A stretch of DNA of 64,000 nucleotides. Origin: a virus. The stretch covers positions 32,452 to 96,451 of IMG/VR virus record IMGVR_UViG_3300037264_006128, one strand, 5' to 3'. This document shows, one piece after another, positions 6,579-50,301 of this stretch. The stretch's first letter is position 1. Each line of letters opens with the position of its first letter. The position numbers were made by a program, and so were the translations under genes. The notes below the pieces were generated by a model. It did no database searches. It was not told the origin of the DNA and saw nothing but the letters and a program-made list of their open reading frames with translations.

Positions 6579-6589
6579 CTCGCTCCTCC

Positions 6590-8506: not shown

Positions 8507-8522
8507 GGAAGAATCACGCCCA

Positions 8523-8636
8523 TCAATCGTCTCGCTTACTGAAGAAGTGCTCACACGCGATCAACACCAGGACCACGGTAAAGAGCCCATAGAGGAAGCC
8601 GCAGAAGATCGTGTCAAGCACACCTATGTCGTTCAT
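8523..8636 (-). CDS. Small single-TM peptide (37 aa)
   Basis: [37 protein letters not shown] fills the gap between two secreted-protein genes. Confidence 0.45.
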
Positions 8637-8643
8637 TTCATTA

Positions 8644-37765: not shown

Positions 37766-39316
37766 TCAAGCCCGAACTGGAATGAACCCCAGATGCCCAT
37801 GCCCGCGGTAGTATCTACTTAGGGCCTGCGTCATGGCGTCCACCTGATCGTCGTACCGCCCGATAGGGAAGGCCGATGCCTCGTCTAGGAACGCTTCAAC
37901 CCACGGGGCGTGGGCCGGAACGTGAACGTTCCCAGCTTCCACCTTCGGTGCCACTGCGTTGCCACGGGCAATCTTCCCGCCCTCCGGCGGAACCCCGATC
38001 AAGCCAGGCACCTGGCTTTTAAGGGCATTGACGATCGCCGTTCCGTTGGCCTTGTCCTCCACCAACGTAACGTTGGCCTGCGGCCACCGGCGGTCCATGC
38101 GCAGCACCAAGGACAGGGACTGCGTGAACGTTGCCCGGACGCGGACCAGATCGAGCAGGAACGCATCGGCGCCCAGGAATCCCCAAACCTGCCCGGCGAC
38201 GTAACTCGAATCTGTGGTGTCCTTGAAGCTCATGTCCCAGCTGACCACGATTGTGTCTACGCGATCAGGCAGCTGCGCCTTGTGGTAACGCACGAAGCTG
38301 TCCCGCTTGAAGATGCCACCACCGATTGGAACGGGACGTTGCTGAAACTGCGCTGAAAAGGCCACGTCCCCCAGTGTAATCCGCAAACTCTCGGTCATTT
38401 CCCGACCGAGACGCTCTGGGCATAGAAGTTCCCCTTCTTCTGTGCGCGGGTCGATCCATCCTATAGACGTGGGCCTCTTGTTGCCCTCGAACTCGTTCGG
38501 GAAGGACAGAAGTTCCACGCCCGAGTCGATCAAGTAGGCGGCAAGGTCATCGTTGTGACCACGTTGCATGATCGTGACACGGCAGTCGCTTTGTTGGTCG
38601 TTTAATCTAGTGCTCCATACTTCTCGATACCACCTAATTACACCTTTGCGTATAGGTTCGCTATGTATCTCTTCCAAGTTGTGCGGGTCGTCGCAAACCA
38701 GAAAATTGGCGCCCTGCCCCGTAGAACTACCACCTACGCTTGTGCTTATACGAAAGCCGCTTTTATTGTTCTGGAAGTGCGACTTTATGTTCTGGTCTGT
38801 GGTCATCGAGAACTTCGCACCCCAATGCTCTTGATACCACGCGCTATCGAGAAGCCTACGCGAAGTTACTGCGTGCGCTAGGCTAAGGGAACTTGAATAC
38901 GAAGCGAACAAGAACCGCAAAGACGGATCTATCGTCCATGCCCAGCACGGCCACGCTATGGACGTTATGGTACTTTTCGAAAAGCGCGGTGGCACGTTTA
39001 TGAGCAAATTACGTATACGTCTGGACATGACAGCTTCCAAATGGTCGCATATAGCTGTCATGTGCCAAGACCATACTAATGGCGCCCCAGGCTCAATATA
39101 CGGCCACGCTTGCTTAAAGAACTCCGCCAGCGTCAGCGCGGGCGCAGCCACGCGCGGCGTTTCGCCGCGCAGCACCGCGTCTGGGTCGTCAGAAACGAGT
39201 CCTTCCGCAAGCCGCTTAATTGCCAGCTGGCGCGGCGAGAACTTGGGTTTGGACTTCGACTTCGATTGGGTCTTCGTAGATTTTTGGCTTTGGGGCATCG
39301 ATGCGTACCGGGGCAT
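37766..39316 (-). CDS. terL: Terminase large subunit
   Basis: LLINVPPRFSKS (Walker A), LVCDDPH (Walker B), SWD, VEDKANG, DDQVDAMTQ nuclease motifs. Confidence 0.96.
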   Translation of the reverse strand: MPRYASMPQSQKSTKTQSKSKSKPKFSPRQLAIKRLAEGLVSDDPDAVLRGETPRVAAPALTLAEFFKQAWPYIEPGAPLVWSWHMTAICDHLEAVMSRRIRNLLINVPPRFSKSTITSIAWPCWAWTIDPSLRFLFASYSSSLSLAHAVTSRRLLDSAWYQEHWGAKFSMTTDQNIKSHFQNNKSGFRISTSVGGSSTGQGANFLVCDDPHNLEEIHSEPIRKGVIRWYREVWSTRLNDQQSDCRVTIMQRGHNDDLAAYLIDSGVELLSFPNEFEGNKRPTSIGWIDPRTEEGELLCPERLGREMTESLRITLGDVAFSAQFQQRPVPIGGGIFKRDSFVRYHKAQLPDRVDTIVVSWDMSFKDTTDSSYVAGQVWGFLGADAFLLDLVRVRATFTQSLSLVLRMDRRWPQANVTLVEDKANGTAIVNALKSQVPGLIGVPPEGGKIARGNAVAPKVEAGNVHVPAHAPWVEAFLDEASAFPIGRYDDQVDAMTQALSRYYRGHGHLGFIPVRA

Positions 39317-40325
39317 GAACCAGCGTGGTTATCTTCGCGCTGATCCGCTTCATCGCAGCAGGATCAGTCACTTCCTCCCTCAGAATCCAAACCAGCTGGT
39401 GCATGATCTGCAAGAACTCCTGCACGCTGATCAGGTTTTCCAGTTCCGTCTGCCGCTTGCGTTCCGTCTCTACCAGCTTCCTTCGTTGCTCGAACACCAT
39501 CTGCAACTCAGCCCATACGGCGGAATCGTTTTTGCGGTACAGGGCTTTGCGCATCTCCTCGACGTGCACTTGCGCCCCTTCGTAGTCCTGCCGGCGCATC
39601 GCCAGTTCCCACCGTTCGAACGCTTGCTTGGCCTGCACCCAACCCGGGCGGCTTTCGCCGGATTCCAGCTTTTCTAGCAGTTCGCAGGATCGCGCATCGA
39701 GCAGTGCGATCTCCTCCTGAAGCTCAAGTAGGTCGTCGGAAAGCCGCGACTTCTCGTACCGATCGGAAAGCCCGTGCGGAACTGCCTTACTGTACCTGGC
39801 AATCTTAGTCATGTGATTCAGAACCCCCATCAGGGCCTTGCCGCCGTGGAACCGGCACACGTGCCTGCCGCGGATAGACCAGTGCTTGCACCGGAACCGC
39901 CTCCCCCCATACTTCGTCACCCTTGGGGTCTTCCACGTGTGCGTGCACTGCTTCAGTCTCAAGGGCCCCTTCCAGTAGCGAATCATCACCATGAAGCGCT
40001 TGATCGCCTTGAACGTGTACGCATGCCGCTGCATGGCCTCGCGGAACTCCTGGTTCTTCCTGGCCATGATCAGGATATCCCGGCGCGTGAAGGGGCTGGT
40101 GAACTCCTTCGGGAGGAGCAGCTTCATTTCGAAGATCTTCTCCTCCACGAACATCTCGTGTTCGGCCAGGATGGCGCAGCGTTCTTCCCACGGCAGGGTG
40201 GTGTTGAGGCCGCGGATCTGTGCGGCCCTGCGGTTGTACGCTTCTTTCCATTCCGGCGTGCGCTTTTCGTCCGGCATGTTGTCCATGTCGAACTCTAGGC
40301 GCAGGATATCGATCTCTCTCATCAC
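39216..40325 (-). CDS. Putative terminase small subunit (HGG Cys/His motif) with N-terminal extension
   Basis: C..WSIRGRHVCRFHGG...RYSK...LELQEEIALL; directly upstream of terL. Confidence 0.65.
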   Translation of the reverse strand: MMREIDILRLEFDMDNMPDEKRTPEWKEAYNRRAAQIRGLNTTLPWEERCAILAEHEMFVEEKIFEMKLLLPKEFTSPFTRRDILIMARKNQEFREAMQRHAYTFKAIKRFMVMIRYWKGPLRLKQCTHTWKTPRVTKYGGRRFRCKHWSIRGRHVCRFHGGKALMGVLNHMTKIARYSKAVPHGLSDRYEKSRLSDDLLELQEEIALLDARSCELLEKLESGESRPGWVQAKQAFERWELAMRRQDYEGAQVHVEEMRKALYRKNDSAVWAELQMVFEQRRKLVETERKRQTELENLISVQEFLQIMHQLVWILREEVTDPAAMKRISAKITTLVHAPVRIDAPKPKIYEDPIEVEVQTQVLAAPAGN

Positions 40326-43231
40326 TCATTTGCGGTTGCAATCGCCATCCCTTCTACTTCAACCGGCCCGCAGGCGCGCGTTGCAGCAAGCGGATCGCCT
40401 TTGCAAAAGACGAGGACGGTTTGATGCGAATGACCAAGTTTGCGGGCTTGCTGAAATTGGGCCTGAACTCGCAGCGGTAGGCTCCCAACCGGGGAAACGA
40501 TGATCGCCTCATTGTACAGCATTGCCCCAGCCGCTTCGAAAGCCGCAATCGCGTCCTTTGCGAACTTTCGATAGAATCCGGTCTTCTTGTCTCGGAAGTT
40601 CCCCACCACCACCATCGCGAAGCGATCGTTTTTCAGCGCCATCACAGCCTGCGCCACGATGGACGAAAAGGCCAGCATGAAGTCTTCGTACGACGGTGCG
40701 TTGCTTAGGTCTAGCGGATCGTCTGTGTAGATTTCCAAGTCCCCGTAAGGCGGACAGGTCATAATCATGTCAACCTGCTCCGCAATCCCCGCATTTCCCA
40801 GCACGGTTGCCAGATTGCGGCTGTCCCCTTGCAGCCACACCGGGGCCGGGAAGTCCGTTTCCGCTTGCGTCGGCAGTTCGCCGGATGCCTGCCCAGCTTC
40901 GCGGGTAACGGTATCGGCAGCCATCGCCGCAAGCGTTGCTGCCTGCCCCGGCGGGTTTGCATTCTCCCGTTCCTGCTTCTTTTCCCCCAGGTAACACTGC
41001 CAAACGTTTTCCGGCACGATAACTTCGATGTCCTCGCCCCGCACAACCCCATCGCGGATGCGTGTGTATTCCTCCTCCCCAAACAGCAACGTCAAGTTAC
41101 GGGCTAGGGCGTCAACTAGCATCGGCCCATTCCCGTGGGCCGTCTTGCAACAGCTGGTCTTCTGGGTGGTTCGGTTGTGTAGCACCACCGTTCCATTCTC
41201 GTTCAGGCGCAGCGGGTACAGATGGCACGTCACTGGGCGATCATCCCCCAGGGAACACCCTTGCGGCGTCAGGTGCGCGCAGGCCATGCCGGGGGTTGCC
41301 CGGGGCGGCCAGTATCCAACAGCATTGCAACACCCACCGCCGCAGCGGTCCCGGATTCCTTCCGCCGTGCAGTCGTGATTCCTTCGCAGCCAGGCAGCAC
41401 TGAACTTCCAGCGGACGGTGTTGCCGCTGGCCCCGGGGACCGCCACGCGCCTACCGACGCTCATCGTTTGCCGCACCCCGACCATCCACAGGAGGTCCCC
41501 ATCGTCAAGAAACGGAACGCACTTCGCTTCGTACACCGGATCCAGATTCAGACCGCCCCACGCGCGGTCCTGCGCCGGGGCCCACTGGTGGTAGTCGATC
41601 TGGGCATTCACCAATGTGCACATCTGCCGCCACAGGGGCGGGGCGTAAGCGTCAAGGCGGGCAGTTGGGTCCGCCCCTACCACAACCCCCAGCACCGGGA
41701 TGGTGATCCCCTTTTCCTGAAGGCCACGAAGGATGCCGGAAAGCGTCATCCCACTTCCAACCGGCACCACGATCCTCCGTACCCCATCCGGGAAACGATC
41801 TGGGATTTCCGTCGCCGTTTGTTCTGGCGCCTCTCGGCATTCCATCCCGAACGGAATCAGCCGCCACCCGGAACGCGCTTCGCAGTCTTCACGTGCGCGT
41901 GCCACGATCACGCTGTTATGCCCGGGGCTATGCTGGATCACTTCAGCCCCAGCGTTCGCTGCGGCCCGGATCTCCGGCGTCCATTCCCCTTCCGGCGTAT
42001 GCACCCGGCACGGGATTTCCAGGCCACGCGCGATGTGCGCCACGATCGCCACCTGTGGGCTTTGCCTGGAACCGGCCGTGATCAGGCCGGCCGGGATTTC
42101 CCCCGCAGAAGCGATGTGGAAGCACGTACGGGCCTTTCCCCCGCGCACCCCAGCGATGGCGTACAGATCATCCCGCTTCGCCCAGATCGACTTCCCGCCG
42201 ATCGTTTCCGGCGCAACCTGTTCGATCGGGGTTTGCCCCCCGTTCCAATCCGGCGCGGCTTCCCACACCACCTGCCCCCCGAACACCTGGCGCACCCGCG
42301 GGCCAACCTCTTTCCACTGTTCGTCGTTCGCATCGCATTGATCTTGCCGCAGGTCCACACCGATGTACTTCCGCCCCAGGGCCGCCGCCACAATCCCACG
42401 CACGCTTCCGCCAGCGAAAGGGTCCAGCACGACTCCCGCAATCGGGCAGAACCATCGATACGCCAGCTCCGCCACCACGGGATCAAAGATGCTGATATTC
42501 TGAACGTCGGCATCCGACGCTGTGCGGCGGGTAGTGATCTGGAACGTGGGCAGCTTCATCTCCGGCCGCCCCAGTTCGCTGCGAATCCCCAAAGAAAGCC
42601 ACGCCCGCTTACGTTCGATCCAGTACCCCTGCCTGCCATCCCACACCGTGAAGGGCGGGATCAGGAACCGTTGGGCAAGGCTACCCACCACGCCATCGCA
42701 GTATCGTTCGTCAGGCGTCAGGCCGTCCGAGTACACGTTCAGATCACCCGGCTGCCGCTGCGTGGCAACCCGGCGCGCGTTAAGCTCCTGCAGCTGCTCC
42801 GTAGAAAAGATCCCCTGCGTTGCGCCAGCCTTCGCCAGCATTTGAAGGCGGTCCACGTTCCACGTTGCCAGTTCCGCCGTGCGGTTGTCGTACAAGGCAA
42901 GGCGCTTCTTCTGTTCTTCGGTAAGGCCCGTACGTCGAACGGCAACCAGTTCGTCAGCTTTGGCATCGACGATACGAACCTTCTTGACGCCAGCTTCCAA
43001 CGCCCCCAGCTGCGTAGCGTTCCCGGCCAGGATCACGTTGTTCTCGTCGATCACGATACTGCGCGCCGTACCCACTTCGCGGATCGAACCGGCAATCATG
43101 CCGATGTTCTCCAGCGTGTGATCCCGGGCATTCTCGGGGTCTTGCACCAGCTTGTTCAGCTTCTTGTAGGTATCGCGTTCGACCGGTTCGCCTTCGCACT
43201 CGTCGTCTTCCACCTGATCGTCAGTCGGCAT
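40322..43231 (-). CDS. ParB-like / DNA methyltransferase fusion with inserted PLP enzyme and YkgJ-like Cys domain
   Basis: ParB (DPENARDH, IVIDENNVILAGN, LYDNRTAELATW); MTase motif I LDPFAGGSVRG; KRDDL..GGKAR, VPVGSGMT, LDPVYEAK; CGGGCC, CAHL...GC...RPVTCHLYP; MTase motif IV MTCPPY. Confidence 0.88.
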   Translation of the reverse strand: MPTDDQVEDDECEGEPVERDTYKKLNKLVQDPENARDHTLENIGMIAGSIREVGTARSIVIDENNVILAGNATQLGALEAGVKKVRIVDAKADELVAVRRTGLTEEQKKRLALYDNRTAELATWNVDRLQMLAKAGATQGIFSTEQLQELNARRVATQRQPGDLNVYSDGLTPDERYCDGVVGSLAQRFLIPPFTVWDGRQGYWIERKRAWLSLGIRSELGRPEMKLPTFQITTRRTASDADVQNISIFDPVVAELAYRWFCPIAGVVLDPFAGGSVRGIVAAALGRKYIGVDLRQDQCDANDEQWKEVGPRVRQVFGGQVVWEAAPDWNGGQTPIEQVAPETIGGKSIWAKRDDLYAIAGVRGGKARTCFHIASAGEIPAGLITAGSRQSPQVAIVAHIARGLEIPCRVHTPEGEWTPEIRAAANAGAEVIQHSPGHNSVIVARAREDCEARSGWRLIPFGMECREAPEQTATEIPDRFPDGVRRIVVPVGSGMTLSGILRGLQEKGITIPVLGVVVGADPTARLDAYAPPLWRQMCTLVNAQIDYHQWAPAQDRAWGGLNLDPVYEAKCVPFLDDGDLLWMVGVRQTMSVGRRVAVPGASGNTVRWKFSAAWLRRNHDCTAEGIRDRCGGGCCNAVGYWPPRATPGMACAHLTPQGCSLGDDRPVTCHLYPLRLNENGTVVLHNRTTQKTSCCKTAHGNGPMLVDALARNLTLLFGEEEYTRIRDGVVRGEDIEVIVPENVWQCYLGEKKQERENANPPGQAATLAAMAADTVTREAGQASGELPTQAETDFPAPVWLQGDSRNLATVLGNAGIAEQVDMIMTCPPYGDLEIYTDDPLDLSNAPSYEDFMLAFSSIVAQAVMALKNDRFAMVVVGNFRDKKTGFYRKFAKDAIAAFEAAGAMLYNEAIIVSPVGSLPLRVQAQFQQARKLGHSHQTVLVFCKGDPLAATRACGPVEVEGMAIATANE

Positions 43232-43901
43232 ATTCGATCCCCTTCGCCCTCGGGAACTTCTCGTACGGTGTGGTTGGTTCCCACTTAGCCATCCGTACCG
43301 GCTTCCCTAGATCATAGTCCTCTTGTGCCTGGTAACGCCAGTGCGTAACCGCACCTAGGCAAACTATTCTCGGCTGCGGGTCCATTTCCCCCACCTGCCA
43401 CCAGAAGCGCAGATCGCTACCGTGCCCTTTCGTTGCCTGCCGCCGCGGGTCCGGGTGCCAGCCGATAGGGGATAGATCGAAGGAAAATCTGGCTGGGGCA
43501 AAGATGCTCCGTTTCCCCCAGTCGGTCATCTCCCGAAGCAGGTCGATCGATACCCGCAGCATCACCGTCCCGGAAAACAGGAACATCCCTTCCCTATTGC
43601 TGTGCAGGTTCCATTGCCCATTGCGGCACGGGGCAGCGGCGAAAAGTATCGTTTTGGTGTGGTTCGCGGGGGACATCGCCAGATCCCAGATCCGGGCATC
43701 CGCCGTGATGTCGTCTTCGATCAGCAACAGATCCCGGCCCTCCCCCATGGCGATCCTTACCGCTTCGTTCTTTGCCTCCGCCGCCGGCAATCCCGACACA
43801 AGCCGGAATATCCCCCCGTGCCTGTATGCGTGCGCGACCGCTTCCGACAAGCACAAGGCCGGGCACACCCCGCGGGTGATAACTACGGCTACGGGGTACA
43901 T
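43221..43901 (-). CDS. Putative GT-A fold glycosyltransferase
   Basis: AKNEAV...LLLIEDDI (DxD-like)...GSDLRF; inside the glycan operon. Confidence 0.55.
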   Translation of the reverse strand: MYPVAVVITRGVCPALCLSEAVAHAYRHGGIFRLVSGLPAAEAKNEAVRIAMGEGRDLLLIEDDITADARIWDLAMSPANHTKTILFAAAPCRNGQWNLHSNREGMFLFSGTVMLRVSIDLLREMTDWGKRSIFAPARFSFDLSPIGWHPDPRRQATKGHGSDLRFWWQVGEMDPQPRIVCLGAVTHWRYQAQEDYDLGKPVRMAKWEPTTPYEKFPRAKGIEYAD

Positions 43902-44761
43902 TTCAGGAGGCTTTCTGTGACTTCGACAACCATCGCCGGATCGATACCTTGGCACTTCCAGTCCGTGCACTTGTGCCAAACTGGGGTCGAAACACACGGC
44001 TGGCATACGTAGTTCGTGTGCAGCTTGTAGGTAGGGCGGCCGACCGGATCGCCCTTCATGGCGCTTACGGCAGTATACAGAACGACGGTTGGCACCCCAA
44101 GGGAAGACGCCATGTGCACCTGCCCACTGTCGATGCCAACGATCACCCGGCACATCGCCAGGTGTTCCGGCAGCTGCACCAACGGAACGTTCCCGATCAC
44201 CTGCGTGTCGTCAATCCCTTCTGTGTCCATCGGAACCCCAATCGCCGCAACGTTCAACCCTTTCGCGCGGAGCATCTTCGATACTTCACCCATGGCCGGG
44301 TAACGCTTCCGCGCCCAAACGGAACTTGGTTTGCACCCATTGACCAGCCCAACATCGAACCGTGGCACCGTGCGATGCAAGCCGGAACACCAGTTGGAAA
44401 CATCGATCAGGCCGGGGCTGCCGATCATCTTGCACGGCAGTTCCCATTCCGGGCATTCGTAAACAGGCTCGTGCAACCACCGTGCGTGCATCAGGAGGGG
44501 GAACCCGCGCAGCTTCCTGGGGCACCAATGCCCAGAGATGTAGAAGTCTGCCTGCGGAACGTCTTCCCACCGACCGTCCAGCACCCGTTCCGCGAAAGCG
44601 CACCGGTTCCACAGGGGCGTCATGTCGTAGTCGCCATCCACGAACAGCGTGATGCGCGCTCCGGCCGTGCGCAGCTTCTTGATCGCAGGAAGGCAAAAGA
44701 TCGAATTCCCGATCCCGGAACTCAACCCGAAGACGACACTTTTTCCAGCAAACTGCTCCAT
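43889..44761 (-). CDS. Glycosyltransferase family 9 (heptosyltransferase-like)
   Basis: GIGN...LPAI, KRYP, VGIDSGQVHMASSLGVPTVVLY, CQPC...C..WKC. Confidence 0.9.
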   Translation of the reverse strand: MEQFAGKSVVFGLSSGIGNSIFCLPAIKKLRTAGARITLFVDGDYDMTPLWNRCAFAERVLDGRWEDVPQADFYISGHWCPRKLRGFPLLMHARWLHEPVYECPEWELPCKMIGSPGLIDVSNWCSGLHRTVPRFDVGLVNGCKPSSVWARKRYPAMGEVSKMLRAKGLNVAAIGVPMDTEGIDDTQVIGNVPLVQLPEHLAMCRVIVGIDSGQVHMASSLGVPTVVLYTAVSAMKGDPVGRPTYKLHTNYVCQPCVSTPVWHKCTDWKCQGIDPAMVVEVTESLLKCTP

Positions 44762-45606
44762 GCTTTTGCCCACACCTCGAATCCGTAGTTGCCGTAGAAG
44801 GATGGATGGAAGCGCCCGCGCGCCATTGCGGCAAGCACGATCCCGGCGATCTGCCCCGGCTCTGCGTCCAGGGGAATTACATGCGCCCGGAATTCCGCTG
44901 CGTTCCCCACCGGGGTACTGATCACAGTCAGGCCGGCAGCTTCCGCATCAGCAACCGAATACGAACCGCCTTCGCTCAACGACAGGCACAGGTAGCCATC
45001 TGCCTTAGCGTACGTGATGGCCCGCTGCACATCGGTCGTAAAGTGCAGCGGAACGAACTCGAACTGCGGGAGCAAACGAGCAACGCTTTCCCACAGTCCC
45101 GCCCCCTTGTTAGCGTCCCTGAAGTCCCCAACGATTCGCAATCTGTCCCGCCCCATCTTCCGGCCAGTGGGCTTTCGTTTGATAGGCGGTACCCAGTTCA
45201 CGATCACCGTGGCGTAATCCAGGGGCAGACCGTAGTGGCGGCAGAACTGATCCCGCACCCAAGCGGAAGGCGCCACGTAGGTCCGGTTGGGTTTGTCGAA
45301 CATCTTCCGTTGGCCGTTGCAGATCTCAAGCGTTCTGCGCGTGCGCCATTCTGGGTCGCGGTCGTAATGGCACTGCGCCATCCCGTGGTGCGTGACCACG
45401 GTGCGAATATCGTCGGGCACAAGCAACGAAAGGTGGTTGTCCACAATCACGATGTCGTCACGATCGAACCGCGGAAGCTCGTCCGGTGTGATGGATTCCA
45501 GCCCCGGAATCGCCATCCGCAAGTAGGAATCAAACCGCACCACCCCCGTACGGATCTGCCCCGGCGGGACATCTTCTTGCCGCTTCGCTACCAGGGAATA
45601 GATCAC
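44722..45606 (-). CDS. Glycosyltransferase family 4 (GT-B)
   Basis: GVVRF, VAPSAW, VIVNWV, LSLSEGGSYSVADAEAAGLTVISTPVG (EX7E-like); GTG start overlapping the upstream stop. Confidence 0.82.
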   Translation of the reverse strand: MIYSLVAKRQEDVPPGQIRTGVVRFDSYLRMAIPGLESITPDELPRFDRDDIVIVDNHLSLLVPDDIRTVVTHHGMAQCHYDRDPEWRTRRTLEICNGQRKMFDKPNRTYVAPSAWVRDQFCRHYGLPLDYATVIVNWVPPIKRKPTGRKMGRDRLRIVGDFRDANKGAGLWESVARLLPQFEFVPLHFTTDVQRAITYAKADGYLCLSLSEGGSYSVADAEAAGLTVISTPVGNAAEFRAHVIPLDAEPGQIAGIVLAAMARGRFHPSFYGNYGFEVWAKAWSSLLEKVSSSG

Positions 45607-46361
45607 TGCTTGCCCACACACGCCGCCGCAATGAATCCCTCTGGCGAAAGCGCATACGGCGCAATCATTGCGGCAAGTGCTTCTACCCCTTTGAACAACG
45701 GGGCGGAAGTGACCTCCCACGGAATATGCACAACAATCACGGCAAAACCGGGAGTCTCCAGCATGCCAGGAATCGTTTCGAGCAACGGCGCCACAGTGCC
45801 TTCGCCCATCCGCTTGCACGTCGCCCCGTACAGTGGGTACCAGGATGGAATGAACGTCGTGCCACGCGCCGGGTATGGCGGCGGAGGGGTGTCCCACCGC
45901 GAGGGAGAAACGTCGTCGTGGTTTGCGCCGCCCCAAACGTAGTCTATTTCCTCCGCGTGCAAGATATCCAAGGTCTCGCAAGTCACGGCGTTGAATGGCG
46001 GAACGTAGTGCCTGGTTTTGCTTCCCGTGCAGTCGAGCAAGAGCGCCTGCCCTGCCGCAACCCGCGCCCTTTGCTGATCGGGCGTAAGGCAGTGAAATTC
46101 GTGCCGTACACCGCCGGAGGTCGTATGGTCCCAGCCGTGCAGTGCGACGGTTAAACCATCCGGCTTGCTAGAGAGCCATTGCTTGGCTTCAACGTCGTTC
46201 ACAACGGAAGCCGGGATCAGCGCCCCAAGGTACGGAACCCCATTCATCGCATCGTGGAATGCCCGGGCCAGCCGCAGCCCAGTATCAGGCTTTTTGAGCG
46301 GGAAGTCATCAGCGGCATCGCCAGAGAAGCCAATGTCATCGACCCTTGTCAGAAATCTCAT
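45603..46361 (-). CDS. Polysaccharide deacetylase-like protein (DUF2334/NodB fold)
   Basis: RVDD, ALHGWDH, YVPPFN motifs. Confidence 0.82.
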   Translation of the reverse strand: MRFLTRVDDIGFSGDAADDFPLKKPDTGLRLARAFHDAMNGVPYLGALIPASVVNDVEAKQWLSSKPDGLTVALHGWDHTTSGGVRHEFHCLTPDQQRARVAAGQALLLDCTGSKTRHYVPPFNAVTCETLDILHAEEIDYVWGGANHDDVSPSRWDTPPPPYPARGTTFIPSWYPLYGATCKRMGEGTVAPLLETIPGMLETPGFAVIVVHIPWEVTSAPLFKGVEALAAMIAPYALSPEGFIAAACVGKQ

Positions 46362-47068
46362 TCACGGCCTCCTGCATTGCCCCAAATAAAGTCGCCAGCT
46401 TTCCCCCCTACCATGAAGAGTAGGTCCACAATGGACACCTGCGGATCGTACGGAGGGTAAAGCTGTGGGTATTCTGGATAATCGTAAGTCATGTACTCAA
46501 GGCCGATTCCGGCGATGTGGAACTTCTCCTCCTCTAGGTAGTTGCTGGCGGCTGGCCCGGTGATGTAGTGCGTCGCCTTCAATTGCCCGAGAATCGATAA
46601 AAGCCGGTCAGTTTTTTCCCCTTCCGCGTCAAGGGTAGACGACCGCACGAATTTCGTATCGCGAATGCCAAGCAACCAAGAAAGCTCAATGGTCAGGTCA
46701 ATTACGAAATCCGCCAGGAATTCCGGCTGCCGCTCGTAAAAGTTCCTTATAGCATGGCCGTATTCGCTGAAGCATGGGGCCCTTCCATAGGACTGCTCGA
46801 TTGTCATCCAATGCTTCCTGCCCCACCGCTCTGCCTGCGAAACGCGGATCTCGTTTGTTTTTCTGCCATCCGCCACGTTGCCTTTGCTTTGCACGGGAAT
46901 CGTCAACCACCTGCTTCCCTGCGCCGTCTTCACGCGATTGCGGTTACGCCAGCCATGCTTGTCGTACTGTACGTCATCGTAGAATACGAATGTGTCGGCA
47001 CGGTATATCTGGTGGAAGTGCCCTCGCCACGGCACGTACGATGGCTGTAGGATCACGCACTTCATCAC
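46358..47068 (-). CDS. wbqC: WbqC-family protein
   Basis: ILQPSYVPWRG, YDDVQY...WRNRNRVK, YITGPAA.NYL, SIVDLLF. Confidence 0.93.
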   Translation of the reverse strand: MMKCVILQPSYVPWRGHFHQIYRADTFVFYDDVQYDKHGWRNRNRVKTAQGSRWLTIPVQSKGNVADGRKTNEIRVSQAERWGRKHWMTIEQSYGRAPCFSEYGHAIRNFYERQPEFLADFVIDLTIELSWLLGIRDTKFVRSSTLDAEGEKTDRLLSILGQLKATHYITGPAASNYLEEEKFHIAGIGLEYMTYDYPEYPQLYPPYDPQVSIVDLLFMVGGKAGDFIWGNAGGRE

Positions 47069-47071
47069 ACC

Positions 47072-47620
47072 TTATTCCGTTCCAACCTTAAGCTGCCTGA
47101 AGTCCGACTCGACAATCCCCATATACAGCATCGGCAGCCACCGCCCATCATGTAGGCGTTCGTCTCGCAGCACCCCTTCGAGTACATATCCAACTCGGCT
47201 GAAGGCGTTGAGCGATGCCCAGTTGTCGGCGTGAATGCTGGCCCATACTTTATGCAACCCGTGCTTCTCGATTCCCGCCTGGGTGCCCAAATAGATTGCC
47301 GTACGCCCTACCCCCCTGCCACGGCATTCAGCCTGGCCCACATAGAGCGATAGTCGCGCATTTTTCACATATGTGTCAATCCGATCCAACACCACGTTCC
47401 CGACATGCGCGCCATTGGCGATTACCGCGAATGCACTGATTGATGGATCATCGCAGGCCCGCTCAATCCACGCCGCAGTTGCGCTGAGGCTTGGCTGCCT
47501 TCTAAGCCCGAAATTCACGCTGACTTGCGGGTCGCACATCCACGCATACATAGCTGGTGCGTGTTGTGCTCCGATGGGCGCGAGCGCTATGTCTGATCGT
47601 ATTGTAATCGCAGAGCACAT
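47072..47620 (-). CDS. GNAT (RimJ/RimL-like) N-acetyltransferase
   Basis: RGRGVG, LHKV, N.AS...F.RVGY.LEG.LR. Confidence 0.9.
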   Translation of the reverse strand: MCSAITIRSDIALAPIGAQHAPAMYAWMCDPQVSVNFGLRRQPSLSATAAWIERACDDPSISAFAVIANGAHVGNVVLDRIDTYVKNARLSLYVGQAECRGRGVGRTAIYLGTQAGIEKHGLHKVWASIHADNWASLNAFSRVGYVLEGVLRDERLHDGRWLPMLYMGIVESDFRQLKVGTE

Positions 47621-47622
47621 AA

Positions 47623-48252
47623 TTACCCCACCATTCGTGCGGCAACCCTAACGGCAGCGGCGGTGTAGACAGGTGATTTTTCCAGATCCGGGTATCCCTG
47701 CTCTTCAACGGGCAAGTCTGCTAATTCCTTGTGGGCAACCGCATCGAACAGCAGTATTCCACGTGCTGCTTGCTCTGGCATCATATAAGCGTTCACACCG
47801 ATCACCTCGAATCGGCCCTGCATGTTCAGGCCGCACTCCTCCCGGCCATCGAATCGAGCCAGGCGTAGCCACCGAGCCGCATCGGGATCGTTCGTCAAGA
47901 TCATCCCGCCGCGCCCAATCGGAAGGTGCTTGCGGATGTGAAAAGATAGGCAGTGTAGGCCACCGGCATACATCTTGCGCCTGAACCGCAATGCGCCGTC
48001 CCAGATGTTGTAGGGTCTTAACTCGTAGGCGCCATCCCATGATTCGCGGAGGAAGACAACTGAACCCCCAGCCAGGATGATGGAACATGGGACGCTGGGG
48101 TAGGTTCTGGCCGGGATGTAGGTCCTTCCTACCTTTACGTACATGCAACTGAGCAGGATAGCCGCAGATCCACTTTCTACAGCAATGGCATGTTTGGCAC
48201 CGGCATATTCAGCCACCCGACGCTCGAATTCCCTGACGATTCCGTATGGCAT
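47623..48252 (-). CDS. DegT/DnrJ/EryC1/StrS sugar aminotransferase, short form
   Basis: FERRVAEYAGAKHAIAVESGSAAI; SFHIRKHLPIGRGGMILT (PLP Lys). Confidence 0.88.
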   Translation of the reverse strand: MPYGIVREFERRVAEYAGAKHAIAVESGSAAILLSCMYVKVGRTYIPARTYPSVPCSIILAGGSVVFLRESWDGAYELRPYNIWDGALRFRRKMYAGGLHCLSFHIRKHLPIGRGGMILTNDPDAARWLRLARFDGREECGLNMQGRFEVIGVNAYMMPEQAARGILLFDAVAHKELADLPVEEQGYPDLEKSPVYTAAAVRVAARMVG

Positions 48253-48282
48253 TTCAATCCTCGGCTACTTAGCTGTGCAGGA

Positions 48283-49017
48283 TCAGGAAAGCGGCCACCG
48301 ATTTTTGCGGACAAAATGGAATTTTAGGATTTCGCCACCAACATTACCTTGTTCGTCCATTCGGTACAGCTTCTTTCCGCGCAGCACGCATCTGTTCCAC
48401 ACTTCATGCCGATCGTGGGCGTTAATCCCGGCAGCGTACAGGCAGCGCATTCGGCCGGCGGCGGATGCATTCCGCACGATGCTCTCCATGCCAGCCTCAC
48501 CTAAGTGGTAGTCCCCTGTTGGGCACCGGACCATATCTGGCCGATCTTGGTATAGCCGCACAATCGAAGGCGTGTTCTTGAACAACTGAAGCGGGCCGTT
48601 CACAGTAGCGCCGTTAGTTGATATCGCATCGAACTGAGACAAGATCCCGTCATTGAGGAACGAGTCCCAATCCCCCCACACCACGTCCCAGTCTCCATAG
48701 CCCCACCACGGATAATCCTGAATGATCTCCTGATACACGTCGGCCATCAACGGGCACAATTCGCACACCAGCTGCCCTGGGATATATCGTGGATCATACT
48801 TATGAATTGCGATCCCCGAAACCTCCGATGCCCGGCGTTGGAATTCGTCCATGGTGCATGGGATACGCACCACCCGCACTTCTGGAACCCAGGCGGCTGC
48901 ATCGCCGACTAGCACCGGCATCAGCGCCTCTATGTCTGTCGTGCGCAGCAGGAATTGCCGCTCCCAACCAGGCGATGGCCCCCACCAGGGCAGGAACACA
49001 GCAACCTTTGCCGTCAT
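48283..49017 (-). CDS. DUF6625-like putative glycosyltransferase
   Basis: WWGPSP.W...YPWWGYGDWDVVWGD...GPLQLFKN...FHF. Confidence 0.72.
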   Translation of the reverse strand: MTAKVAVFLPWWGPSPGWERQFLLRTTDIEALMPVLVGDAAAWVPEVRVVRIPCTMDEFQRRASEVSGIAIHKYDPRYIPGQLVCELCPLMADVYQEIIQDYPWWGYGDWDVVWGDWDSFLNDGILSQFDAISTNGATVNGPLQLFKNTPSIVRLYQDRPDMVRCPTGDYHLGEAGMESIVRNASAAGRMRCLYAAGINAHDRHEVWNRCVLRGKKLYRMDEQGNVGGEILKFHFVRKNRWPLS

Positions 49018-49033
49018 TGTCAGAACTACCTTC

Positions 49034-49657
49034 CTAGCAAGCCTCGGTGCGTGCGATTTCGTCTGAATTCATACGTGTCCACCAAATGCTCGTATTCGGC
49101 ACTACGTTGATGTGCCATCCCGCGAAAGAGTGAACGGCGGCCCGAACTCGCTGGTCGGCATAATCGTGTCCGCAAAGCAGGCCGCCGGGTTTCAGGTTTG
49201 GCAGCCACGCCTTTATGTCTCCGGTGACACCTTCCGTGTGATGTGCCGCATCGACAAACACTACGTCCGTAGATCGACCATCAACCAAGGTGGCCGCCTG
49301 AATCGTAAATTCGTGGATCACCGGGCAAAGGAGGTCCGGCCGGATGCGCATCACTTCATCACGTACGGCCATGAATTCGCGCTCTGTGCTGCCACCCGAT
49401 TTTTCGAGTTCTACCTCGACCGCCGCATCGTACGTTCCGGTTCCGCCATCGAATGTATCGACGGCTATGATCGTTGAGCCCGCAGGTAGGCTTAGAGCAA
49501 CGCAGGCCCAACTGCGCCCCCGCCAGGTGCCGAGTTCCACCCACTGCGCACCGGGCGTTAGATAGCCAGCAATAAAGGAAAGCCAACGCAGTGCCGCTTC
49601 CTCCATCCAGCCACTGACCCCAAGTGAAAATCCAACCGGTGAAACGTCTGCCTGCAT
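49034..49657 (-). CDS. Class I SAM methyltransferase (Methyltransf_24)
   Basis: VELGTWRGRS, AVDTF, VFVDAAH, LKPGGLLCGHDY. Confidence 0.92.
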   Translation of the reverse strand: MQADVSPVGFSLGVSGWMEEAALRWLSFIAGYLTPGAQWVELGTWRGRSWACVALSLPAGSTIIAVDTFDGGTGTYDAAVEVELEKSGGSTEREFMAVRDEVMRIRPDLLCPVIHEFTIQAATLVDGRSTDVVFVDAAHHTEGVTGDIKAWLPNLKPGGLLCGHDYADQRVRAAVHSFAGWHINVVPNTSIWWTRMNSDEIARTEAC

Positions 49658-49659
49658 TG

Positions 49660-50301
49660 TTACACGCTTGTTCCGTATCCCCATACCTGCGCTAGGTTCA
49701 CGAGGGGCAAGTTGCATTCAAACACGCCGCGCAGGTAGGTTTTGTCTTCTTCGCTGGCCCACTTGTAGCTAGCCGCCCGATCTGCATCCAAGGCACGTAT
49801 GCCCCCCATGGTCAAGGCCGCCTCTGGCGAACACCTCATGCTGGCTGCCAGCTCGTCAAAATGCTTACGTGCATCTTTGGCCCCAAAGAACTTGAGCAAA
49901 TCCGATTCAATAGACAACGGGGCGCACACGAGATCCTCGAACTTTACAACCCTCGCCTGATCTGCATATGCCGGCATCAGCGCCATAGCCGTGGCAACCT
50001 GCGCACACGCGATCCACCGATCTGGCGACACCCAATACTGGCCCGGGGCCTTCCAGTGCTTAGAGATCAGCACGCAGCGTGGGTCGCGCATCACGTAGAC
50101 GATGCGGAGTTCCGGGTCTTCGTCCGCAAGGATCAAGGCGCGCTCGCCAACGAGGGGAAGCCTTCCAATGCTGTAGGGGGCGTCGTTCCTCTCTGGCATC
50201 CCCTCCCACTCTAAAATTACGGCCCCTGGAAGGGCAGCCGCTAGCAAGTGCGCCATCAGCGTGGTGCCGCTTCTCGCGCATCCTGTCACAAGAACCCTCA
50301 C
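49660..50301 (-). CDS. Sulfotransferase family protein
   Basis: VTGCARSGTTLM (5'-PSB), MRDPRCVLIS (3'-PB), VKFEDLV. Confidence 0.88.
   Translation of the reverse strand: MRVLVTGCARSGTTLMAHLLAAALPGAVILEWEGMPERNDAPYSIGRLPLVGERALILADEDPELRIVYVMRDPRCVLISKHWKAPGQYWVSPDRWIACAQVATAMALMPAYADQARVVKFEDLVCAPLSIESDLLKFFGAKDARKHFDELAASMRCSPEAALTMGGIRALDADRAASYKWASEEDKTYLRGVFECNLPLVNLAQVWGYGTSV

What the first reader, a model, noticed from the sequence alone, without database searches (positions are those of the whole stretch)
40322..43231. DNA methylase split by an inserted PLP enzyme and a Cys-cluster domain: candidate one-polypeptide DNA hypermodification enzyme
Seen: one intact 969-aa ORF beside the terminase. 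It reads ParB-like domain (~43170-42830), first MTase half with motif I (LDPFAGGSVRG...GVDLRQDQ, ~42690-42320), a complete fold-type-II PLP enzyme (TPIEQ, KRDDL, GGKAR Schiff-base Lys, VPVGSGMT, LDPVYEAK; ~42240-41460), a YkgJ/FliB-like Cys domain (CGGGCC, CAHL...GC...RPVTCHLYP; ~41420-40970), then the second MTase half (WLQGDS, MTCPPY, LYNE). Known: ParB-MTase fusions with a CPPY motif are common near phage terminases without this insert; PLP enzymes process amino-acid adducts on hypermodified thymidine in phages such as ViI and M6; ACC deaminase acts on a SAM-derived substrate. Inference: the ~480-aa insertion into one loop, with all motifs retained, suggests coupled chemistry. One option is transfer of a SAM-derived group (methyl or aminocarboxypropyl) to a base, followed by PLP-dependent deamination/decarboxylation, loaded at packaging by ParB.
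Basis: partly seen in the sequence, partly recalled or inferred. Interest (0 to 1): 0.88.

Follow-up and report, generated by a model that had tools for sequence, protein, structure and literature searches.

The report
Three-enzyme phage DNA-modification fusion protein
A phage gene next to the DNA-packaging genes joins a DNA-tethering domain, a DNA methyltransferase-type enzyme, a vitamin-B6 (PLP) enzyme and a metal-binding cysteine domain in one protein. The last two resemble enzymes known to reshape chemical groups hanging on phage DNA, so this unstudied protein probably makes a DNA mark more complex than methyl.

Summary
Window 40322-43231(-) is one intact 969-aa ORF: ParB-N domain, N-half of a CPPY amino-methyltransferase, a complete fold-type-II PLP domain, an 8-cysteine domain, then the C-half of the methyltransferase. 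The insert covers residues 311-796.

It is not a chimera. At least 12 other proteins from other contigs have the same domain order.

The three catalytic modules (MTase, PLP, Cys) recur in almost every order and also as separate adjacent genes. They therefore work as one system rather than one composite active site.

The closest studied relative of the PLP domain is ViI gp226, which decarboxylates amino acids attached to phage DNA. The Cys domain has no solved fold. It belongs to the CxxCxxCC/DUF3109 superfamily, whose two studied members (FliB, phage DpdM) N-methylate primary alkylamines; DpdM does so on DNA.

My best model is inferred, not shown: SAM aminocarboxypropyl transfer to a base, then PLP decarboxylation to aminopropyl, then N-methylation.

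PLP-less CPPY methylases with identical motifs weaken this model, and plain methylation stays a live rival.

This scan has already found the MTase-PLP fusion three times on other DNA. The new points here are the Cys module and its link to DpdM/FliB. I found no paper on the fusion.

The parts
42830..43231 (-). N-terminal ParB-N (ParB/sulfiredoxin-fold) domain, residues about 1-134. The GxxR arginine is replaced (N71, T73).
   Evidence: phrog_620 E 6.2e-24 on residues 21-133 and phrog_15396 E 1e-23. In the column for residue 73, 44 of 66 homologues have R and 12 of 66 have T, as here.
42299..42693 (-). N-half of the CPPY amino-methyltransferase, residues about 180-311. It holds the conserved PPF...SELGR block, a short variable segment (229-243), motif X (SIFDPV..ELAYRWF), motif I (DPFAGGSVRG), strand beta-2 (GVDL) and the following helix.
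   Evidence: PF01555 stretch 266-301 matches profile positions 183-218. phrog_12517 and phrog_498 match in separate pieces. Invariant columns are, the alignment with contiguous relatives, and the secondary structure.
41459..42253 (-). Fold-type-II PLP domain, residues 327-591. It has Schiff-base Lys366 (GGKAR), S391-P392-Q393, the phosphate loop S493-G494-M495 and Y567-E568-A-K570.
   Evidence: PF00291 E 7.1e-20 and phrog_3650 E 6.9e-32. BLASTP to ViI gp226 gives 26% identity, E 2e-8, with Lys366 aligned to K92. VIA Z is 25.7 to 1j0a and 25.3 to D-Cys desulfhydrase. Key residues are invariant in 66 of 66 homologues.
40952..41416 (-). Eight-cysteine domain, residues 606-760, with pattern C621-x8-C630-x3-C634-C635 ... 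C651-x7-C659-x9-C669 ... C695. It belongs to the CxxCxxCC/DUF3109 (YkgJ, FliB, DpdM) superfamily and has no solved structure.
   Evidence: The AlphaFold2 model has pLDDT 90.7 and pTM 0.84. It has no PDB match: Foldseek best E 1.2, VIA-wide best Z 2.2. The BFVD hit A0A6J5S5H4 has E 4.9e-7 and TM 0.58. ESM Atlas gives TM 0.66 to a PF03692 cluster and 0.56 to a DUF3109 cluster. DUF3109 scores below its threshold (E 6e-5) and is hit by 13 of 28 homologues.
40322..40843 (-). C-half of the methyltransferase, residues about 797-969. It holds strand beta-3 (WLQGDS), motif IV (MTCPPY, C826), the remaining motifs (YNE, RK.G..HQ) and the stop codon.
   Evidence: phrog_498 E 6.2e-89 on 782-959 and phrog_12517 E 7e-89 on 794-958. 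C826-P-P-Y is invariant in 66 of 66 homologues.
40844..40951 (-). Low-confidence linker, residues about 761-796, between the Cys domain and the C-half of the methyltransferase.
   Evidence: pLDDT is below 50 for residues 777-792 in the full-length model.
37766..39316 (-). Large terminase subunit. This is downstream context and belongs to the same transcription unit.
   Evidence: phrog_38 E 6.7e-88.
39317..40322 (-). Gene of unknown family between the fusion and TerL, possibly the small terminase. Its ATG at 40322-40320 overlaps the fusion's TGA by 1 nt.
   Evidence: ORF list, no Pfam or PHROG match, sequence of the junction.

Best explanation
The protein is a self-contained, multi-step DNA base-modification enzyme. 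It acts on phage DNA and is expressed with the packaging genes. It combines a degenerate ParB-N domain (probably a DNA or partner tether) with three catalytic modules that act in sequence.

Proposed steps, all inferred:
1. The CPPY methyltransferase-fold domain uses SAM to alkylate a base nitrogen, most likely an exocyclic amine of A or C. It transfers the 3-amino-3-carboxypropyl group rather than, or in addition to, methyl.
2. The PLP domain, a relative of the DNA-amino-acid decarboxylases ViI gp226 and M6 gp52, forms a Schiff base with the appended alpha-amine and removes CO2. This leaves a cationic 3-aminopropyl side chain. The reverse order, decarboxylating SAM first and then transferring aminopropyl, gives the same product.
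3. The eight-cysteine domain carries one or two metal sites, as in FliB and DpdM, and N-methylates the terminal primary amine.

Shown here:
- The architecture.
- Intact catalytic motifs in the MTase and PLP modules, and eight conserved cysteines in the Cys domain.
- Obligate genomic linkage of the three modules.
- Their nearest characterised relatives.

Inferred: the transferred group, the target atom, the order of steps and the metal content.
For: Linkage of the modules:
- MTase, PLP and Cys occur as MTn-PLP-MTc, MTn-PLP-Cys-MTc, MTn-Cys-PLP-MTc, MTn-MTc-PLP, MTn-MTc-Cys-PLP, MTn-MTc-PLP-Cys, MTn-PLP-MTc-Cys and PLP-MTn-MTc. They also occur as separate adjacent genes: AlanGrant gp1+gp2, Mae-JY30, L078, L079, L088, L096 and L099.
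- All seven Cys-domain loci on viral contigs not already fetched hold the PLP and/or CPPY-MTase modules, in the same or adjacent genes. The exception is L100, which is cut at the contig end.
- No other gene is conserved around the module in 80 loci. The next largest cluster is present in 11 loci. The modules plus common metabolites should therefore suffice.

Intact active sites:
- Lys366, the phosphate loop, YExK, DPFxGG and CPPY are invariant in 66 of 66 homologues.

Relatives of the PLP domain:
- It matches phrog_3650 at E 6.9e-32. ViI gp226 belongs to phrog_3650 at E 2.5e-241.
- Pairwise BLASTP gives E 2e-8 with the lysines aligned. This is better than the best solved structure by sequence (E 1.5e-4).
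- gp226 and M6 gp52 decarboxylate amino acids attached to DNA bases (PMC8989533).
- The S-P motif after the active-site Ser is shared with gp226 and AlanGrant gp2. D-Cys desulfhydrase has S-N at that place.

Relatives of the Cys domain:
- The fold equals the viral 'zinc- or iron-chelating domain'.
- FliB is a [4Fe-4S], SAM-dependent lysine N-methylase that also cleaves SAM to MTA (PMC8598068).
- DpdM is a YkgJ homologue assigned to DUF3109 in the paper. It N-methylates the aminomethyl group of dPreQ1 in phage DNA (bioRxiv 10.1101/2023.04.13.536721). phiSM DpdM scores above the PF03692 cut-off.

Chemical precedent:
- In microcin C maturation, MccD (methyltransferase fold, aminocarboxypropyl transfer from SAM) and the MccE PLP decarboxylase together give aminopropylation (PMC10491745).

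Genome position:
- In cluster-B mycobacteriophages the same left-end slot holds either the CPPY-MTase+PLP pair (AlanGrant) or a 7-deazaguanine cassette with a DpdM homologue (Knocker).
Against: - PLP-less CPPY methylases (Listeria phage LP041, Enterococcus phiFL3A gp36) have essentially the same motifs I and IV. Nothing in the sequence marks a switch from methyl to aminocarboxypropyl transfer.
- No CPPY enzyme has been characterised.
- The PLP-Cys pair is also fused to an unrelated Dam-type (D12, DPPY) methylase in a 1513-aa polyvalent-like protein (P0021). That fits a module which works beside any methylase.
- Stand-alone PLP genes 51-55% identical to the insert exist with no CPPY methylase within 8 kb. 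The one near-complete record among them does carry N6_N4 methylases elsewhere.
- The link from the Cys domain to DpdM is at superfamily level only. Profile-profile hhalign was not significant (Prob 1.4%), and DUF3109 scores lie below the Pfam threshold.
- No chemistry was measured.
Confidence: 0.4

Rival explanations
1. The CPPY domain is an ordinary N6-adenine or N4-cytosine methyltransferase. The PLP module, with or without the Cys module, does a separate supporting or anti-defence job on a small molecule. Candidates are removing or converting an amino-acid-type metabolite linked to SAM use (SAH, SAM, ACC-like compounds or D-cysteine). The fusion would then only co-localise two activities.
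For: - PLP-less relatives have identical catalytic motifs.
- The PLP-Cys pair is also fused to a Dam-type methylase inside a polyvalent-like protein.
- The PLP fold is closest to ACC deaminase and D-Cys desulfhydrase, which act on free amino acids (Z 24-26).
- Free domain order and insertion in a helix-to-strand loop show that no composite active site is needed.
Against: - The nearest characterised sequence relatives act on DNA-bound amino acids, not free ones.
- Fold-type-II enzymes are not known to cleave SAH or SAM (my own knowledge).
- The characterised relatives of the Cys domain methylate amines on macromolecules, one of them on DNA.
- Linkage to amino-methyltransferases is very tight across hundreds of proteins.
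Confidence: 0.3
2. Sulfur route. The D-cysteine-desulfhydrase-like PLP domain releases sulfide or a persulfide from cysteine. This would build or repair the Fe-S cluster of the Cys domain, or thiolate DNA with the CPPY cysteine as carrier.
For: - D-Cys desulfhydrase is the best solved match by sequence (E 1.5e-4) and is tied for best by fold (Z 25.3).
- Two extra cysteines (C370, C465) are invariant in the PLP domain.
- The motif-IV cysteine is invariant.
- FliB-type domains hold an oxygen-sensitive [4Fe-4S] cluster.
Against: - About three quarters of PLP-methylase proteins lack the Cys domain.
- CPPY is also present in PLP-less relatives.
- The invariant YE(A/G)K glutamate is the ACC-deaminase and gp226 state. 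D-Cys desulfhydrase has Thr at that position (alignment; my own knowledge of the family).
- Known DNA sulfur systems use fold-type-I desulfurases (PMC10853773).
Confidence: 0.08
3. The PLP domain trims an amino acid that another pathway attaches to DNA, as in ViI/M6 thymidine hypermodification through 5-hmdU, a kinase and an amino-acid:DNA transferase. The methylase would be unrelated to this.
For: The PLP domain lies in the same PHROG as ViI gp226. The paper reports fusions of PLP enzymes with other hypermodification genes.
Against: - The 96-kb record has no thymidylate-synthase-like gene and no homologue of the ViI gp247 transferase or gp243 kinase. The record is estimated 78% complete.
- No such genes are conserved next to the module in 80 loci.
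Confidence: 0.07
4. The insert is catalytically dead and serves as a target-recognition or structural domain, or the fusion is an assembly chimera.
For: The insertion lies between the SAM-binding and catalytic halves. Alpha-class methylases carry their target-recognition domain in that region (my own knowledge).
Against: - All PLP catalytic and cofactor residues are invariant in 66 of 66 homologues.
- The same domain also occurs C-terminal, N-terminal and as a separate gene.
- The same domain order occurs on many other contigs.
Confidence: 0.03

Closest known systems
Phage ParB-N / N6_N4 DNA methyltransferase fusions with a CPPY motif (phrog_498, phrog_12517), for example Enterococcus phage phiFL3A gp36, Listeria phage B054 gp77 / LP041 and mycobacteriophage AlanGrant gp1
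   Same: They share the ParB-N domain, the conserved PPF...SELGR block, motif X, motif I (DPFAGG) and motif IV (CPPY). They also share the position beside the terminase genes.
   Different: Those proteins are 290-480 aa with the two halves joined directly. Here 486 aa (PLP plus Cys domains) are inserted between the helix after beta-2 and beta-3. None of them has been characterised biochemically as far as I could find.
ViI gp226 and M6 gp52: PLP-dependent decarboxylases of amino-acid:thymine conjugates in phage DNA (PMC8989533)
   Same: The PLP domain and gp226 are both fold-type-II and lie in the same PHROG (phrog_3650), with aligned Schiff-base lysines and shared QSP and YE(G/A)K motifs. The stand-alone PLP genes next to CPPY methylases fall in phrog_3650 (AlanGrant gp2) or phrog_7093 (Mae-JY30).
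   Different: Identity is only 26%. Those enzymes work with a 5-hmdU kinase and an amino-acid:DNA transferase, which are absent here. Here the only constant partner is a SAM-dependent methyltransferase-fold domain.
DpdM (phage dPreQ1 N-methyltransferase) and FliB (flagellin lysine N-methylase), both in the CxxCxxCC/DUF3109 (YkgJ) superfamily
   Same: All have eight conserved cysteines in the same kind of pattern: a C-x(n)-C-x(2-3)-CC block, then C-x(7-9)-C-x9-C with a P-x-[ST]-C signature, then a last Cys. The predicted fold matches viral 'zinc- or iron-chelating domain' proteins. DpdM also acts in a phage DNA-modification pathway.
   Different: No significant sequence or profile match to DpdM. 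The first Cys spacing is x8 rather than x3-4. PF03692 is not hit, and DUF3109 is hit only below threshold. DpdM sits in 7-deazaguanine clusters, whereas this domain sits with PLP and CPPY methylase.
MccD + MccE N-terminal domain (microcin C aminopropylation) and other SAM aminocarboxypropyl transferases such as TYW2
   Same: The logic is the same: a methyltransferase-fold enzyme that takes the aminocarboxypropyl group from SAM is paired with a PLP decarboxylase to leave an aminopropyl group (PMC10491745).
   Different: This is an analogy only and no homology was tested. From my own knowledge, MccE is not a fold-type-II PLP enzyme. The acceptor there is a phosphoramidate on a peptide-nucleotide, not DNA.
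ACC deaminase / D-cysteine desulfhydrase family (1j0a, 4d8t, 1f2d)
   Same: These are the best structural matches (Z 24-26 over about 260 residues). Lys, the active-site Ser, the phosphate loop and the YE.K motif are conserved.
   Different: Sequence similarity is marginal (E 1.5e-4; NCBIfam scores far below cut-offs). The residues after the active-site Ser differ: S-P-Q here against S-N-H in D-Cys desulfhydrase. This domain is embedded in a DNA enzyme.

Membership tests
N6_N4 amino-methyltransferase (PF01555), circularly permuted CPPY subgroup (phrog_12517 / phrog_498) | SAM-binding motif I (FxGxG type) and catalytic motif IV ((D/N/S)PP(Y/F/W)) in one Rossmann-like domain | tested here: met
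   PF01555 scores E 2.9e-11, 44.2 bits against a cut-off of 26.7, in two stretches. phrog_498 and phrog_12517 score about E 1e-89. DPFAGG is at 270 and CPPY at 826. The first residue of motif IV is Cys, which is outside the classical D/N/S set.
N6_N4 amino-methyltransferase (PF01555), circularly permuted CPPY subgroup | Methyl transfer to exocyclic N of adenine or cytosine | not testable with these tools
   I found no biochemical data for any CPPY member. This needs LC-MS or SMRT/nanopore analysis.
Fold-type-II PLP enzymes (PF00291), ACC deaminase / D-Cys desulfhydrase branch | Schiff-base lysine, glycine-rich phosphate loop and a complete two-lobe fold | tested here: met
   PF00291 scores 72 bits against a cut-off of 35. 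Z is 25.7 with rmsd 2.9 A over 263 residues to 1j0a. Lys366 aligns with K51 of D-Cys desulfhydrase. The key residues are invariant in 66 of 66 homologues.
ACC deaminase / D-cysteine desulfhydrase equivalogs (NCBIfam TIGR01275, NF003030, NF052482) | Score above the curated cut-off | tested here: not met
   The best scores are 36.6 bits against a cut-off of 450 (CuyA) and 23.5 against 289 (ACC_deam_rel).
Phage DNA-amino-acid PLP decarboxylases (ViI gp226 type, phrog_3650) | Sequence membership in the same PHROG as the characterised enzyme | tested here: met
   The PLP domain matches phrog_3650 at E 6.9e-32, and ViI gp226 matches it at E 2.5e-241. Pairwise E is 2e-8. The PHROG is a remote-homology cluster, so membership does not fix the reaction.
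Phage DNA-amino-acid PLP decarboxylases (ViI gp226 type) | Co-occurrence with 5-hmdU DNA kinase and amino-acid:DNA transferase | tested here: not met
   The own record has no homologue of ViI gp243 or gp247 and no thymidylate-synthase-like gene. None is conserved in 80 related loci.
Phage DNA-amino-acid PLP decarboxylases (ViI gp226 type) | Decarboxylation of a DNA-tethered amino acid | not testable with these tools
   This needs an enzyme assay.
CxxCxxCC / YkgJ family (PF03692; FliB, DpdM) | Pfam HMM match above the gathering score | tested here: not met
   PF03692 gives no hit at E <= 1 for the domain or for 28 homologues. phiSM DpdM does pass, at 25.7 bits against a cut-off of 23.
CxxCxxCC / DUF3109 superfamily | Shared fold and an eight-cysteine signature with the C..CC block and P-x-[ST]-C | tested here: met
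   The BFVD hit named 'Zinc- or iron-chelating domain containing protein' has E 4.9e-7, probability 1.00 and TM 0.58 over 173 columns. ESM Atlas gives TM 0.66 and 0.56. Eight cysteines are conserved. 13 of 28 homologues hit DUF3109 below the threshold.
DUF3109 (PF11307) | Pfam HMM match above the gathering score | tested here: not met
   The score is 23.4 bits against a cut-off of 33.5, and only profile positions 117-179 are matched.
DpdM (dPreQ1 methyltransferase) | Detectable homology to DpdM and location in a 7-deazaguanine (DpdA/QueCDEF) cluster | tested here: not met
   tblastn and a single-genome search found nothing. hhalign gives probability 1.4%. The neighbours here are PLP and CPPY-methylase modules, not Que/DpdA genes.
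ParB-CTPase fold (PF02195) | Conserved GxxR nucleotide-binding arginine | tested here: not met
   The fold is recognised (phrog_620 E 6e-24), but the motif reads G70-N-A-T73. 44 of 66 relatives have Arg at that position.

The most novel reading that the evidence does not exclude
This family would be the first DNA aminocarboxypropyl/aminopropyl transferase system. A single polypeptide using only SAM and PLP would write a cationic N-(3-aminopropyl) side chain on A or C, or N-(3-methylaminopropyl) when the Cys domain is present. That would be a new class of DNA hypermodification made without any modified nucleotide precursor. It would also assign a substrate type, DNA-borne alkylamines, to a new branch of the structurally unsolved FliB/DpdM metallo-methylase superfamily.
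Probability: 0.3. Interest if true: 0.92.

Novelty: new variant of a known kind. Interest (0 to 1): 0.76.

Why it matters
Phage DNA hypermodifications block restriction and CRISPR enzymes and give new enzymology and tools. Every known pathway that hangs amino acids or amines on DNA starts from a pre-modified base such as 5-hmdU, 5-hmdC or preQ0.

This module has more than 370 members and occurs in cultured cyanophages, Erythrobacter phages and mycobacteriophages. It has no such upstream pathway. If it alkylates DNA directly from SAM and then tailors the adduct, it would be a new and very compact route. It could be tested at once by expressing one gene in E. coli.

The Cys-bearing form found here would also supply a third functional context for the FliB/DpdM superfamily. 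That superfamily's mechanism and structure are still unsolved.

If the product turns out to be plain m6A or m4C, the tight methylase-PLP linkage would still need an explanation.

Tried and rejected
Tools that could not be used:
The chimera reading was rejected from independent contigs instead.

Searches for the Cys domain that found nothing:
- tblastn against 50,697 phage records: no match.
- PDB by sequence: chance hits only.
- PDB by fold: Foldseek best E 1.2 and VIA-wide best Z 2.2. This does not prove the fold is new.
- PF11307 search, and a direct search with the Cys domain, of the Vibrio phage VH7D genome: nothing. DpdM was found there through PF03692.
- hhalign of the Cys-domain profile against DpdM, as a single sequence and as a six-sequence profile: not significant.
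- The search for related loci with 61 stand-alone Cys proteins failed because no stretch was conserved enough. A single protein found nothing. A 14-sequence subset worked.

Alignments and fold searches that fell short:
- A global alignment of all Cys-bearing proteins failed because of the domain permutations.
- The fold search with the full-length model listed only PLP enzymes. The reunion of the two methylase halves therefore rests on sequence alignment and predicted secondary structure, not on a structural match.

Ideas rejected or left open:
- The neighbouring sugar-modification operon is not part of the module. None of its genes has a homologue beside any of 80 related loci.
- A quick FastTree of PLP domains showed the architectures interspersed. 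Branch support was not assessed, so I draw no conclusion about the number of fusion events.

Literature: ten searches found no paper on the fusion, on CPPY methylases or on aminocarboxypropyl transfer to DNA.

Full report
**1.

Window 40322-43231 (minus strand) is a single 969-aa ORF. It starts at an ATG with a GAAGGGG Shine-Dalgarno-like sequence 7 nt upstream. It is translationally coupled to both neighbours. The window is part of a 96,451-bp IMG/VR virus record estimated 78% complete. The large terminase (phrog_38, E 6.7e-88) and the portal (phrog_145, E 3e-94) follow downstream.

Family scans give:
- ParB-N on residues 21-134.
- PF01555 in two pieces, with motif I at 266-301 matching the C-terminal end of the profile.
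- PF00291 on 331-524.
- A weak DUF3109 hit on 664-724.

phrog_12517 is a 316-position methylase family, and the protein matches it in two separate pieces. Aligning the protein with contiguous relatives places the insert at residues 311-796. The relatives used were phiFL3A gp36, Listeria phage LP041, AlanGrant gp1 and the second gene of Mae-JY30. In them '...EIG' runs straight into 'NWxxDDS'.

The full-length AlphaFold2 model (pLDDT 83.4) places strand beta-1 at 267-270, beta-2 at 288-293 and a helix at 296-317. The insert follows, and then beta-3 at 798-801 and beta-4 at 820-825, ending in CPPY. The insertion therefore sits in a helix-to-strand loop. In Rossmann-type folds that side is opposite the edge that binds ligands (my inference from general knowledge).

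**2. It is a family, not an accident**

Cultured phages carry the form without the Cys domain:
- Pseudanabaena phage Pam4 gp70, annotated 'pyridoxal-phosphate dependent enzyme'.
- Erythrobacter phages ZS04 gp7 and vB_EliS_R6L, annotated as DNA methylases.

In 66 aligned insert-type homologues every expected catalytic or cofactor residue is invariant:
- K352-R-D-D.
- G364-G-K366-x-R.
- S391-P-Q.
- S493-G-M.
- D564, Y567, E568, K570.
- D270-P-F-x-G-G.
- C826-P-P-Y.

Both enzymes are under purifying selection, so the insert is not a dead spacer.

**3. The modules are shuffled, which is the real evidence for coupling**

I mapped five segments of the query onto the 120 best homologues and onto 87 loci from viral contigs. 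The methylase, PLP and Cys modules appear in these orders:

| Order | Examples or count |
|---|---|
| MTn-PLP-MTc | about 70 of the 120 best homologues |
| MTn-PLP-Cys-MTc | this protein and about 11 more |
| MTn-Cys-PLP-MTc | - |
| MTn-MTc-PLP | - |
| MTn-MTc-Cys-PLP | - |
| MTn-MTc-PLP-Cys | - |
| MTn-PLP-MTc-Cys | - |
| PLP-MTn-MTc | - |
| Separate adjacent genes | PLP, Cys, MTase as three genes (L078, L096); ParB-PLP, MTase, Cys as three genes (L099); MTase then PLP (L079); PLP then MTase (L088) |

In cultured phages, AlanGrant/Vincenzo gp1 (CPPY methylase) is followed by gp2 (a stand-alone PLP enzyme, phrog_3650, E 2.7e-106). Mae-JY30 has ParB, methylase and PLP as three consecutive genes.

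An all-against-all clustering of neighbours in 80 loci found no other conserved partner. The next largest cluster occurs in 11 loci, and terminase and portal families occur in 9 each.

The glycosyl/sulfo/acyl-transferase operon just upstream in this window has no counterpart at any other locus. It is therefore not part of the module.

**4. The PLP module**

By fold it is a complete ACC-deaminase/D-cysteine-desulfhydrase-type domain: Z 25.7 to 1j0a and 25.3 to 4d99 over about 260 residues.

By sequence it is far from the cellular enzymes (E 1.5e-4 to 4d8t; NCBIfam scores far below cut-offs). It is closer to phage proteins, matching phrog_3650 at E 6.9e-32.

I fetched ViI gp226 (YP_004327553). 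It belongs to phrog_3650 (E 2.5e-241) and aligns with the insert at 26% identity, E 2e-8. Lys366 falls on K92, the lysine that the authors propose for the internal aldimine.

gp226 and M6 gp52 were shown in vitro to decarboxylate O-serinyl- and C-alpha-glycinyl-thymidine in DNA (PMC8989533).

Two motifs deserve note:
- The S-P pair after the active-site serine is shared with gp226 and AlanGrant gp2. D-Cys desulfhydrase has S-N there.
- The YE(G/A)K glutamate is shared with gp226 and AlanGrant gp2. From my own knowledge of the family, ACC deaminase has it too and D-Cys desulfhydrase has Thr.

The ViI-type upstream enzymes are absent from this record.

**5. The Cys module is what is new in this window**

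Eight cysteines are conserved: 621, 630, 634, 635, 651, 659, 669 and 695. The domain folds confidently on its own (pLDDT 90.7, pTM 0.84). It matches nothing in the PDB by Foldseek or by an exhaustive VIA-align pass.

Three lines tie it to the CxxCxxCC/DUF3109 superfamily:
- In BFVD it matches a phage 'Zinc- or iron-chelating domain containing protein' (E 4.9e-7, TM 0.58 over 173 columns).
- The ESM Atlas gives TM 0.66 to a viral PF03692 cluster and 0.56 to a DUF3109 cluster.
- 13 of 28 homologues hit DUF3109 below threshold.

Its own family is small: 168 clusters at 50% identity among 1.84 billion representatives. Most members are stand-alone proteins of 160-200 aa. In viral contigs, seven Cys-domain loci lay on contigs not already fetched. 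Six of them also held the PLP and/or CPPY-methylase modules. The seventh, L100, is cut at the contig end.

Two members of the wider superfamily have been studied:
- FliB carries a [4Fe-4S] cluster on its Cys motif, needs SAM, methylates lysine epsilon-amines and also produces MTA (PMC8598068).
- DpdM is a YkgJ homologue with a CxxxCxxCC motif. It methylates the aminomethyl group of dPreQ1 in phage DNA and was described as a fold new to nucleic-acid methylases (bioRxiv 10.1101/2023.04.13.536721).

I located DpdM in VH7D, phiSM, Pan1 and Knocker. phiSM DpdM passes PF03692, and these genes sit in 7-deazaguanine clusters. Direct profile comparison with the domain studied here is not significant. 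The relationship is therefore at superfamily level: fold and cysteine pattern only.

**6. Mechanism**

The facts to explain are these:
- A SAM-dependent alkyltransferase fold.
- A PLP enzyme whose nearest studied relatives need a primary amine next to a carboxylate on a DNA side chain.
- An optional domain whose studied relatives methylate primary alkylamines.
- No other conserved gene.

The only amino-acid-bearing group the first enzyme could supply is the 3-amino-3-carboxypropyl group of SAM. I therefore propose aminocarboxypropyl transfer to a base nitrogen, then decarboxylation to 3-aminopropyl, then N-methylation. N-methylation must come after the PLP step, because a secondary amine cannot form the external aldimine.

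The pairing of a methyltransferase-fold aminocarboxypropyl transferase with a PLP decarboxylase has a precedent in microcin C maturation (MccD/MccE). The reverse order through decarboxy-SAM has not been excluded there either (PMC10491745).

This model is inference. I give it 0.40.

**7. What speaks against the model**

- CPPY methylases without any PLP partner have the same motifs.
- The PLP-Cys pair also occurs with a Dam-type methylase in a polyvalent-like protein.
- Some PLP genes stand without a CPPY methylase within 8 kb. Their neighbours are ThyX-like, NUDIX and NAD-salvage genes. The only near-complete such record does carry N6_N4 methylases elsewhere.

The main rival, plain methylation plus an auxiliary small-molecule PLP activity, gets 0.30. 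A sulfur route gets 0.08 and a ViI-type pathway 0.07. A dead domain or a chimera gets 0.03.

**8. Novelty and earlier notes**

This scan had already flagged the methylase-PLP fusion three times on other DNA. Follow-up agents named ViI gp226 and M6 gp52 as the closest known enzymes. I re-tested the gp226 link and it holds.

New in this report:
- The Cys module, its obligate linkage to the other two modules and its tie to FliB/DpdM.
- The free permutation of all three modules.
- The MccD/MccE analogy.

Ten literature searches found no study of the fusion or of CPPY methylases.

I class the finding as a new variant of a known kind (phage DNA-modification enzymes). There is a realistic chance (about 0.3) that it is a categorically new DNA modification route.

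Noticed in passing
window 43221-51586 (- strand): A co-oriented, tightly packed operon of sugar-tailoring genes runs directly into the fusion gene. It contains an unknown 310-aa gene, GT4, WbqC-like, GNAT, DegT, DUF6625, Methyltransf_24, a sulfotransferase and another methyltransferase. None of these genes accompanies the PLP-methylase at 80 other loci. Its target (DNA, virion or host surface) is open.
   Followed up: partly
window 47623-48252 (- strand): The DegT/DnrJ/EryC1-type aminotransferase ORF is only 209 aa against a 360-position profile, and it matches in two stretches. It may be truncated, frameshifted or mis-started.
   Followed up: no
window 43012-43021 (- strand), residues 70-73: The ParB-N domain has G-N-A-T where 44 of 66 relatives have the nucleotide-binding G-H-x-R. 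Twelve relatives share the Thr. This ParB domain probably does not bind NTP.
   Followed up: partly
L101 (Mycobacterium phage Knocker 1-7146) versus L006 (AlanGrant 1-2868): In cluster-B mycobacteriophages the left genome end, next to the terminase, holds one of two cassettes. One is a CPPY methylase plus PLP enzyme (AlanGrant). The other is a ParB/DUF6610 protein plus a 7-deazaguanine cassette with a DpdM homologue (Knocker). The slot looks like an exchangeable DNA-modification locus.
   Followed up: partly
P0021 (1513 aa, metagenome): A polyvalent-like protein runs PLP, Cys, a D12-class Dam methylase (DPPY) and, at the C-terminus, an XkdF-type protease domain. It suggests that the PLP-Cys pair can be delivered in or with the virion.
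   Followed up: no
P0110 (1059 aa) and P0105 (1306 aa), metagenome: Two variants carry further enzymes. P0110 has an Asp/Arg beta-hydroxylase-type dioxygenase domain and no detectable CPPY half. P0105 has an extra N-terminal class-I methyltransferase.
   Followed up: no
window residues C370 and C465 of the PLP domain (about 42122-42124 and 41837-41839, - strand): Two cysteines in the PLP domain (GGKxRxC and PFGMEC) are invariant in 66 of 66 methylase-embedded PLP domains. ViI gp226 has Ala at the first position. Their role is unknown.
   Followed up: no
L085-L087 (viral contigs), about 6582-8747: Stand-alone PLP genes 51% identical to the insert sit directly after a ThyX-like gene and a NUDIX hydrolase. 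This may be a different, nucleotide-level use of the same PLP enzyme.
   Followed up: no
The only ParB-fold protein seen here lacks the HTH that reads parS, so I assume no link.
   Followed up: no
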